In this document: one piece after another, positions 13,402 through 16,400 of the stretch
Numbering within the stretch: the stretch's first letter is position 1
How the letters are laid out: each line of letters begins with the position of its first letter
NCBI GenBank assembly: GCA_025935855.1
Contig: JAICUM010000001.1
Span: 1 to 39,606 of the forward strand
Length of the DNA stretch: 39,606 nucleotides
Source: Pirellulales bacterium
GTDB lineage: Bacteria; Planctomycetota; Planctomycetia; Pirellulales; Lacipirellulaceae
Direction: 5' to 3'
Notes under the pieces: model-generated
What the model saw: only the letters and a program-made list of their open reading frames with translations
The model's database searches: none
What the model was told of the DNA's origin: nothing
Translations under genes and position numbers: made by a program

Positions 13402-16400
13402 GTGGCGACGGAGACGGTCGCGGGGCCAGCCGAAGACGCGTTAGCGGTTCTTCGCAGCTTGCCCGCACAATTGGAAGCGCACGCCGGCTTTTCCGAGGTG
13501 CTTGCGAGCCTGACTAAGGGTCAGGCCGGCACGCTCGGCGGAGTCTGGGGGTCTTCGCGCGCGCTGGTCGCGGCGGCTTTGGCCAGCCACTGCCCGGGCA
13601 CTTTGGTCGTGGTGCTGCCGCACACCAACGAGGTCGATTCGCTGTGCGAGGACCTCAAGCTTTTCATTGACTCGGAGAACGAGTGCTTGCCGGCCTGGGA
13701 AAGCGACGCCGGCGAACGGCTGGTCTACGACGAAACGTTCGGCCAGCGGCAGCGGTTGCTGAAGCGGTTGGCGGGGGATTTGATCGCTGGCCGTAGTCCG
13801 GTTTCTCCGAAACCGGAATTCGAGTCTTTGCCACGGCGAATCTCCGATCGGAGCGACTCGGCTGCGGCATCGGGATTCGAGTCTCGGAGAGACTCGGCTA
13901 CCGTAGGACCGCGGATTGTTGTTACGTCGATTCAGTCGTTGTTGCAGCCGATGCCGTGCCGGGAGGAGTTGGCTGGCGCGACGCGTCGACTGGCCGTTGG
14001 CCAGCGGTTGGATGTTGAGGGGTTCACACGGTGGCTGGTTGAGCGCGGCTGCCACGGGACGACGGCCGTGGAGTTGCCGGGCGAGTTTTCGCTACGCGGC
14101 GGCATTCTGGACGTCTTTCCTCCGGACGCCGTTGACCCTTTGCGCATCGAGCTGTTCGACGATGAGATTGAATCGATCCGCACGTTCGACGTGGCTACGC
14201 AGCGCAGCTTGGAAAGCTTGCGTCAAGCGGATATCACGGTGCTCGACCCGAAGGGGAAGTACCGCACGCACTTCTCAAGCTACTTGCCGCCGGGCAGTTG
14301 GTTCATGCTCGTCGAGCCGGCTGATTTGGACGAGGAAGGCCGGCACTACCACCGCCGGCTGGAACGGCCGGAGGATTTCTTCGCGACCTCGACGACGCTA
14401 CGGGAGATCTACAAGTTTCCGTCAGTGACGGCCGCTGGCGTACCGGCGGGGTCGTATGAGACGACGGCGCATTTGCAGTTCGAATCTGTCGAGCAGTTCA
14501 GCGGCGATGTGTCACGGGTGCGGGGCGAACTGGACTCGGCGTCAGCGGGGCAGCAGGTGTATCTGGTCTGCGACACGGAGGCGGAGGTCGAGCGGCTGGA
14601 GGAAGTGTTTCGCGAGACGAAGCTCTCCGGCGAAAAACGGCTGCATTTCGTGCGCGGACGATTGGCGCATGGGTTCCGCGTACATAGCCCAGCCATTCTG
14701 GCTGGGCGTCCGGCCAGGATGGCCGGGCTATCTGGCGGCATCATTCTGATTAGCGCGGCGGAGCTGTTTCATCGGCAGGAGCTGGCGCGGCCGTCGCAGC
14801 GCGTCACCGGCCGGGCGATCGACAGCTTTTTGCAGCTCCGCGAAGGCGACTTGGTCGTTCACCTGGCGCATGGCATTGGCCGTTATCGCGGACTGAAACT
14901 GCTCGACAAGGAGGATCGGGCCGAGGAGCACCTGGAACTGGAATACGCCGAGGGGACGCGGATTTTCGTTCCCACGAGCAAGATTGACCTGGTACAGAAG
15001 TACGTCGGCGGGCGGAAAGCCAAGCCGGCGCTGGCGAAGATCGGCGGCACGGCGTGGCTGCGGCAAAAAAAGGCGGCCGAGCGGGCGGTCGAGGACCTGG
15101 CCGTCGATATGTTGCAGTTGCAAGCAGCGCGCGAATCGCGGCCGGGCATTGCGTTTCCGGAGGATACGCCGTGGCAACAGGAATTCGACGCGGCGTTTCC
15201 TTACCAGGAAACCGAGGATCAATTGTCGGCCATCGACGCGATCAAGGCCGACATGGAACAGCATAGGCCCATGGACCGGCTGCTGTGCGGCGACGTGGGC
15301 TTTGGCAAGACAGAGCTAGCGATTCGGGCGGCGTTCAAAGCAATCGACGCGGGGTACCAGGTGGCGGTCCTCGTGCCGACGACGATTCTCGCGGAACAAC
15401 ATCGTCGGACGTTCACGCAGCGGATGGCGGAATTCCCGTTTCAGATCGCGGCGATCTCGCGGTTTTGCACCGCCAAGGAAGAACGGCAAATCCTCGAGGC
15501 GACGGCCAATGGACAGATCGATCTGTTGATCGGCACGCATCGCCTGGCATCGCCGGACGTGAAATTCCAGAACCTGGGCCTGGTGATCATCGACGAAGAA
15601 CAGCGGTTCGGCGTGGCGGTGAAGGAGCGGCTCAAGGCGCTGCGTTCCAGCGTTGACGTGCTCACCATGACGGCGACGCCGATTCCGCGCACGCTGCACA
15701 TGTCGCTGTTGGGCGTGCGGAGCATCTCGAACTTAGAAACGGCGCCGAAGGATCGGCTGGCGGTCGAAACGCGGATCGCGCGCTTCGACGATGCGCTCAT
15801 TCGCCATGCGATTGTTCGCGAGCTGAACCGTGGCGGGCAGGTGTACTTTGTGCACAACCGCGTCCACGACATCGAAAAGGTGCGGCACGAGCTCGAGCGA
15901 ATTGTGCCGGAGGCGACGATCGGTATCGGCCACGGGCAGATGAACGAATCGGAGCTCGAAGAAGTAATGCTGGGCTTCGTGCGGCATGAGTTCGACATTC
16001 TGTTGGCGACGACGATCGTCGAAAGCGGTCTCGACATTCCCAATGCGAACACGATCTTCATTGACGACGCCGATCGATATGGGCTGGCCGACTTGCACCA
16101 ACTGCGGGGCAGGGTAGGTCGGTACAAGCACCGGGCCTACTGCTACTTGCTCGTGGACCAAGGACGGCACTTATCGCCGGAGGCGGCGCGGCGGCTGCGA
16201 GCCATCGAGGAGTTCAGCCAGATGGGCGCTGGGTTCGCCTTGGCCATGCGCGACCTGGAGCTGCGCGGCGCCGGCAATTTACTCGGCACGCAACAGAGCG
16301 GGCACATCGCCGCCGTTGGTTACGAGCTTTACTGCGCGCTTCTCGAAAAGACGATCCGCGAGTTGAAGCACCTGCCGCCACGGGACTCGGTGGAGGTGTC

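What the first reader, a model, noticed from the sequence alone, without database searches (positions are those of the whole stretch)
13793..13901. REP-like palindrome cluster translated in frame inside Mfd (insert 1)
Seen: two outward-headed GTAG hairpins with a TCC loop (13793-13817; 13901-13878 on the minus strand) lie within the intact mfd ORF and add about 36 non-Mfd-looking residues (RSPVSPKPEFES...FESRRDSAT) just before IVVTSIQSLLQP. A third copy between them is split by exactly 21 nt (13828-13848), which preserves the frame and gives the peptide duplication FES..RSDSA / FESRRDSA. Established: GTAG-headed REPs are substrates of HUH/RAYT transposases and are normally extragenic; Rickettsia palindromic elements are the precedent for coding insertions. 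Inference: a mobile palindrome is creating new protein sequence in a conserved repair enzyme, with selection for the reading frame.
Basis: partly seen in the sequence, partly recalled or inferred. Interest (0 to 1): 0.8.

Follow-up and report, generated by a model that had tools for sequence, protein, structure and literature searches.

The report
REP repeat trio inside Mfd loop
Three copies of a short palindromic DNA repeat found across this planctomycete genome sit in frame inside the DNA-repair gene mfd and would add a predicted floppy loop of about 40 residues; this kind of insertion is already described, and relatives carry unrelated repeats in the very same loop.

Summary
Real, but of a known kind. 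The hairpins belong to a GTAG-headed REP family with 146 copies in the genome (controls 1 and 0). REP-flanked RAYT genes occur here and in relatives. The loop holding them is 53 residues, against 12 in insert-free orthologs; it is predicted to be disordered and lies before the UvrA-binding domain. Soil metagenome contigs of other studies cover both junctions. The 21-nt split is not an mfd-specific frame-keeping event: it is a standing long-loop variant at 10 loci, at least three intergenic. A 95%-identical Mfd lacks exactly one 57-nt unit, and an 88%-identical one has an unrelated insert, so the peptide is not conserved. Eight of 13 same-genus orthologs have a longer loop here, from at least four repeat families; carB, pcrA and hisD show similar recurrence. 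Best reading: selfish repeats survive, and turn over, in permissive loops. In-frame GTAG REPs in repair genes were published by Di Nocera 2013 (mfd not in its table). The scan has already noted such cases on other DNA, including an mfd. Why the same loops are hit so often stays open.

The parts
13402..16824 (+). mfd (transcription-repair coupling factor), intact ORF of 1140 aa that hosts the insert
   Evidence: TIGR00580 982 bits over cut-off 800; one match in the genome
13792..13902 (+). 37 codons (residues 131-167) encoded by the REP cluster; predicted disordered loop in the N-terminal domain, about 30 residues before the UvrA-binding domain
   Evidence: pLDDT below 50 for ORF residues 130-165; no counterpart in M. 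smegmatis Mfd
13793..13817 (+). REP hairpin A: GTAG head, 9-bp stem, TCC loop; differs from the commonest family form by a compensatory T-A pair
13821..13865 (-). long-loop REP copy with a worn GCAG head; with hairpin A it forms a heads-out dimer, 85% identical to an intergenic dimer on contig C162
13828..13848 (+). 21-nt extra loop, a standing feature of 10 copies in this genome
13878..13901 (-). REP hairpin B: exact match to a family sequence with 11 identical copies in the genome
13818..13827 (+). first copy of a 10-nt exact direct repeat; the copies are 57 nt (19 codons) apart
13875..13884 (+). second copy of the 10-nt direct repeat; loss or gain of the unit between the two matches the 19-residue gap in P0001
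13903..13906 (+). extra GTAG right behind the head of hairpin B, a junction type seen at 11 of 53 copies of this subfamily; no stem follows it here

Best explanation
The segment is a cluster of three copies of a genome-wide GTAG REP family, likely spread by a RAYT (HUH tyrosine) transposase, that sits in frame in a loop of Mfd predicted to be disordered and likely persists because it does little harm. Shown: the family, its REP-flanked rayt genes, the absence of the segment from insert-free orthologs, the length change between close relatives, and the occupation of the same loop by unrelated repeats. Inferred: (1) a REP dimer was copied into the three-residue turn after the helix ending in KRLAG; (2) only a phase without the TAG stop and a net length divisible by three let mfd survive; (3) the cluster later changed by one 57-nt unit through slippage or recombination at the 10-nt direct repeat, more likely a loss in the P0001 lineage (about 60:40, because the middle copy is the worn one); (4) the peptide has no selected function, and the loop is a permissive site that repeat families enter and leave.
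For: 146 copies in 105 clusters with compensatory stem changes, controls 1 and 0. Only 9 of 105 clusters score as inside a coding frame on both sides, so the family is mostly extragenic. An HUH protein on C670 is flanked by inverted REPs of the same architecture (NF047646 E 2e-16). Its homologs in G012 and G013 are flanked by the very subfamily found in mfd. Homologs were found in 5 of 9 REP-bearing relatives and 0 of 6 REP-free ones. The loop is 11-12 aa in 18 of 29 further orthologs whose anchors were found (54 loci examined). pLDDT is below 50 only at the insert and the cut end, mean 86, and the fold matches Mfd. P0001 (95% identical) lacks 19 residues exactly between the direct repeats, and P0002 (88%) has an unrelated 79-residue loop. 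Relatives hold other palindromes here that are multicopy in their own genomes: 14 hits in G008, 27 in G013 and 86 in G010. G012 has the same family in another codon phase. Recurrence at one loop is also seen in carB, pcrA and hisD.
Against: Mobilisation and translation were not observed. The rayt found in this genome (82% complete) is flanked mainly by the sister subfamily and scores below the family cut-off (59.9 versus 80), so the cognate enzyme was not found here. REP-bearing G001, G002, G009 and G023 gave no rayt match with this query. Eight of 13 same-genus orthologs have a lengthened loop, more than plain survival among many tolerant sites would seem to give; I did not measure the number of such sites. 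Six of about 40 genes with internal in-frame hairpins are replication or repair genes, with no background measured.
Confidence: 0.84

Rival explanations
1. The loop is an actively favoured target. An earlier hairpin, single-stranded exposure or a RAYT cleavage site draws new palindromes to the same spot, so recurrence reflects targeting and replacement and not only survival.
For: 8 of 13 same-genus orthologs have longer loops, from at least four families. G000, G010 and G012 share the second Mfd insert type yet differ at this loop. TnpA-REP cleaves close to existing REPs (passages of PMC8266576). A left-over GTAG follows hairpin B.
Against: The families differ in sequence, so one enzyme is unlikely to aim them all. 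Five same-genus orthologs keep the 12-residue loop. The same pattern in carB, hisD and prepilin leaders fits sites that simply tolerate extra residues. This rival can coexist with the best explanation.
Confidence: 0.25
2. The insert has been co-opted. The added peptide, or the hairpins in the mRNA, tune Mfd (UvrA recruitment, auto-inhibition or mRNA decay), in line with the mutator speculation of Di Nocera et al.
For: The site is about 30 residues before the UvrA-binding domain. Six of about 40 hit genes are mfd, pcrA/uvrD, priA, dnaA, uvrA and dnaE. The same trend was remarked on in PMC3733652.
Against: Sequence, length (9-83 residues) and codon phase all vary among orthologs. One contig shows a stem-breaking Phe-to-Leu change at 13878 (single contig, depth 4.4). 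The other hit genes are mostly metabolic or translation genes.
Confidence: 0.07
3. The segment is a local duplication or an ordinary variable loop that only resembles REPs, or an assembly error.
For: The 57-nt unit is bounded by a direct repeat, so local slippage did shape part of it. No contig spans the whole insert.
Against: 11 exact copies of hairpin B lie elsewhere, an 85%-identical dimer lies between genes on C162, both junctions are covered in other studies, and P0001 keeps hairpins A and B at the protein level.
Confidence: 0.02

Closest known systems
Intragenic GTAG-tagged REPs (Di Nocera, De Gregorio and Rocco 2013, PMC3733652; read: abstract, passages, sections 5 and 15, part 1 of section 17, part 1 of 3 of supplementary file 3, term search of 4 supplementary files)
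   Same: GTAG head, short stem, 3-nt loop, heads-out dimers and trimers; mostly extragenic with a minority in frame in genes; many cases in the PVC member Opitutus terrae, including uvrA, recD, dnaE2 and DNA ligase; inserts of 20-82 residues.
   Different: Different stem sequence (the consensus figure is not held, so no GTAG family number could be assigned); mfd does not appear in its supplementary files; that paper says REPs in genes of one category mostly sit at different sites, whereas here one loop is hit repeatedly by unrelated families; a lineage-specific 21-nt long-loop variant.
REPtrons: RAYT / TnpA-REP with flanking REPs (Nunvar 2010, PMC2817692, abstract and outline; PMC6006769 and PMC8266576, passages)
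   Same: rayt genes flanked by inverted REPs; REP abundance goes with rayt presence; an 8-bp perfect stem with a 3-nt loop as in the Stenotrophomonas group 3 REP; REP copies inside the rayt gene itself.
   Different: The rayt here was not assigned to a subclass and scores below the NCBIfam cut-off; activity untested; the cognate rayt for the mfd subfamily was seen only in relatives.
Rickettsia palindromic elements (as reviewed in PMC10969869, passages; the original papers were not read)
   Same: Palindromic repeats fused in frame inside unrelated housekeeping proteins.
   Different: RPEs are about 150 bp and encode a conserved peptide, and nearly half are intragenic; here the units are 24 nt, the peptide varies with phase, and about a tenth of clusters are inside genes.

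Membership tests
GTAG-tagged REP | unpaired GTAG head next to a short stem-loop | tested here: met
GTAG-tagged REP | many dispersed copies with compensatory stem changes | tested here: met
   146 copies versus 1 and 0 in controls; 11 exact copies of hairpin B
GTAG-tagged REP | mostly extragenic, often in inverted dimers | tested here: met
   9 of 105 clusters score as internal on both sides with my own dicodon gene model; many +/- pairs
GTAG-tagged REP | match to one of the 24 published GTAG families | not testable with these tools
   consensus sequences are in Figure 1 of PMC3733652, which is not held
REPtron (RAYT plus REP) | HUH/Y1 transposase gene flanked by inverted REPs of the family | tested here: met
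   C670 gene flanked by the sister subfamily; G012 and G013 homologs flanked by the mfd subfamily
REPtron (RAYT plus REP) | protein passes the RAYT family threshold | tested here: inconclusive
   PF01797 26.2 bits over cut-off 23; NF047646 59.9 bits under cut-off 80
REPtron (RAYT plus REP) | RAYT cleaves and joins single-stranded cognate REP | not testable with these tools
   needs biochemistry
Intragenic (codogenic) REP | element in frame inside an intact ORF and absent from orthologs | tested here: met
Intragenic (codogenic) REP | insert translated in vivo | not testable with these tools
   no proteomics tool; inferred from the single intact ORF
Rickettsia palindromic element | about 150-bp element encoding a conserved peptide | tested here: not met
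   24-nt units; peptide and phase vary among relatives

The most novel reading that the evidence does not exclude
A small set of loops in replication and repair enzymes, this Mfd loop foremost, are self-renewing landing sites. Unrelated palindrome families are steered into them and replace one another within a genus, and the changing inserts tune transcription-coupled repair.
Probability: 0.08. Interest if true: 0.65.

Novelty: new member of a known kind. Interest (0 to 1): 0.27.

Why it matters
It is a clean, well-resolved example of how selfish repeats add residues to a conserved enzyme. It gives a natural series of Mfd alleles (no insert, dimer, trimer, four or more unrelated inserts) with which to test the old speculation that REP insertions in repair genes alter repair. 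It also marks a loop of Mfd that tolerates 9 to 83 residues. The phenomenon itself is published, so the value lies in the recurrence and short-term turnover, not in a new system.

Tried and rejected
No RNA holder was listed for the stretch, which says nothing on expression. The metagenome scan with the window's own segment returned mostly distant Mfd/UvrB loci and no close relative with DNA, so P0001 and P0002 are compared as proteins only and their hairpins are inferred. The Mfd tree leaves G000's place in the genus open, so whether the worn REP-like relics in G001 and G002 share an origin with hairpin B is not settled. Joints skipping 57-59 nt in runs X1 and X8 have only 24 letters on a side and foreign flanks, so I read them as other REP dimers, not as an mfd allele. 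In one search, 25 of 54 loci gave no anchors and were dropped. In one search anchors failed for 2 of 17 relatives' pcrA loci and 3 of 16 hisD loci, and the G013 carB hit is probably a paralog. Of 42 genes, two (C480, C199) were dropped by eye as ordinary coding; some of the rest may also be chance. The G009 repeat has only 4 exact copies, two of them in mfd, so it is the weakest of the four families. The heptamer-type inserts of G022 and G038 were not counted genome-wide. I did not measure a background for repair-gene enrichment, nor count frame-breaking insertions. Paper searches listed nothing on REPs in mfd or in DUF1559 leaders; the library lacks most subscription papers, and parts 2-3 of supplementary file 3 of PMC3733652 were only term-searched.

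Full report
Context. The window is contig C641 of a 5.16-Mb, 82%-complete planctomycete genome. The closest named Mfd homologs are labelled Lacipirellula or Pirellulales. The ORF at 13402-16824 is a complete Mfd of 1140 aa with UvrB-interaction, RID, helicase and TRCF domains, above the TIGR00580 cut-off, and it is the only match in the genome.

Observation. Hairpin A (13793-13817, +), hairpin B (13901-13878, -) and a third copy interrupted by 21 nt (13865-13821, -, head worn to GCAG) are as described. The cluster is 109 nt and touches 37 codons. One of its three phases on the + strand has a TAG stop, and mfd uses an open one. Contigs from soil metagenomes of three studies cover both junctions with few differences, though none spans the whole insert.

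The repeat family. GTAG, one base, an 8-bp stem and a TCC loop occur 146 times in the genome, against 1 and 0 in two Markov controls, with many compensatory stem changes and inverted pairs. Hairpin B has 11 exact copies. Hairpin A differs from its commonest form by a compensatory pair, which points to a DNA-level rather than a protein-level constraint. With my own dicodon gene model, 9 of 105 clusters score as internal to a coding frame on both sides. Family matches identify carB, pcrA/uvrD, a DUF1553 protein, a solute-binding protein and an ABC ATPase among them. An HUH transposase on C670 is flanked by inverted REPs of a sister subfamily and carries an in-frame pair itself. Its homologs in G012 and G013 are flanked by the subfamily found in mfd. 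The REP pattern is in 10 of 26 genomes tested, the window's included. The rayt query matched 5 of 9 REP-bearing relatives and 0 of 6 REP-free ones; kin are not independent, so this is only a trend.

The 21-nt split. It is not special to mfd. Ten copies in the genome carry this extra loop, all 21 nt long. The variant was not seen in four relatives tested. The copy closest to mfd's, 85% identical over 76 nt with hairpin A included, lies between genes on C162, and those on C436 and C682 are also intergenic. Five others lie in prepilin-like leaders, so an origin of the variant in coding DNA cannot be excluded, but the length is no evidence of selection inside mfd.

Orthologs. Between fixed anchors the loop is 53 residues here and 12 in five same-genus genomes. 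It is 11-12 in 18 of 29 further orthologs whose anchors were found, out of 54 loci examined. M. smegmatis Mfd has nothing matching residues 125-161. The AlphaFold model of the N-terminal 459 residues has mean pLDDT 86 and drops below 50 for the insert; it matches solved Mfd structures. The site is about 30 residues before the UvrA-binding domain, which starts at residue 197.

Turnover. P0001, 95% identical overall, keeps hairpins A and B but lacks exactly 19 residues, the 57 nt between two exact 10-nt direct repeats. P0002, 88% identical, has an unrelated 79-residue loop. Eight of 13 same-genus genomes have a lengthened loop. G012 has the same REP family in another codon phase; G008 and G013 have a second family (14 and 27 hits genome-wide); G010 a third (86 hits); G009 a fourth (4 exact copies). 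G001 and G002 carry worn REP-like relics. The tree does not resolve G000's position, so the number of events is at least four but not exact. A second Mfd loop (14684-14731 here) behaves the same way.

Is Mfd special? The genome has 33 hairpin families with 1022 copies, and 42 genes score as carrying one internally in frame. Six of the 40 kept are replication or repair genes, with no background measured. Recurrence at one loop is not confined to repair genes: carB has a same-family insert in G012, pcrA has inserts in G012 and G002, and hisD has longer loops in G002, G005, G007 and G010. Twelve of 63 prepilin-like motifs are directly preceded in frame by REPs, scattered over the tree (10 changes for 12 of 55 proteins, shuffled mean 11.0). 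Both patterns fit repeats surviving where extra residues are harmless.

Mechanism. Shown: family, REPtron association, lineage-specific presence, length change by one repeat-bounded unit, and replacement by unrelated families. Inferred: RAYT-mediated copying into a short turn, filtering by purifying selection on an intact mfd, slippage or recombination for the 57-nt change, and no selected role for the peptide (0.84). Targeting to a pre-existing hairpin may add to this (0.25). Co-option is unlikely (0.07). The high hit rate of this one loop is the part that plain survival does not obviously explain.

Known systems. Di Nocera 2013 (PMC3733652) already lists in-frame GTAG REPs in about 70 entries for Opitutus terrae, including uvrA, recD and dnaE2, and speculates on mutator effects; mfd is absent from its supplementary files. 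RAYT-REP units are described in PMC2817692, PMC6006769 and PMC8266576, and RPEs in PMC10969869. Earlier notes of this scan report the same kind of case in other genomes, including an mfd, recurrent loops and prepilin leaders; they are unchecked and are not counted as support.

Verdict. Observation confirmed, interpretation partly supported, new member of a known kind, interest 0.27.

Noticed in passing
window 14684-14731: Second in-frame palindrome dimer in mfd (ATAG heads, 16 codons) from another family of 83 hairpins. G010 and G012 share its type, and other same-genus genomes carry different palindromes at that site.
   Followed up: partly
G000 contigs C10, C37, C107, C182, C289, C303, C318, C373, C418, C491, C620 and others: 12 of 63 prepilin-like (DUF1559-type) cleavage motifs are directly preceded in frame by REP dimers of two subfamilies, against 74 of 3804 genes with a REP arm in a comparable stretch. 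They are scattered on the tree, so likely repeated insertions into a leader that is cut off.
   Followed up: partly
L044 (G000:C670:21101-21898) and L239-L241: The rayt gene and three homologs each carry a REP copy inside their own coding region.
   Followed up: partly
G000, genes listed: In-frame hairpins also in priA, dnaA, uvrA, dnaE, ileS, metH, hisD, murG, fmt and others; 6 of about 40 hit genes are replication or repair genes, background not measured.
   Followed up: partly
L036 and L258 (carB of G000 and G012): Both have a 19-residue REP-dimer insert at the same site and phase, absent from 11 other relatives; shared ancestry or parallel insertion not resolved.
   Followed up: partly
window 25682-25852, 32420-32526, 24736-24765, 32148-32177, 29243-29382: Other intergenic inverted repeats, several repeated within the window; the one at 24736 matches a family of 52 hairpins.
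   Followed up: no
L001-L003, L005: Four more Y1 transposase genes in G000, each flanked by its own palindromes; one has an in-frame TAA.
   Followed up: no
L011 (G008:C9:14802-14957): The G008 mfd is out of frame near its start, upstream of the loop; may be an assembly error.
   Followed up: no
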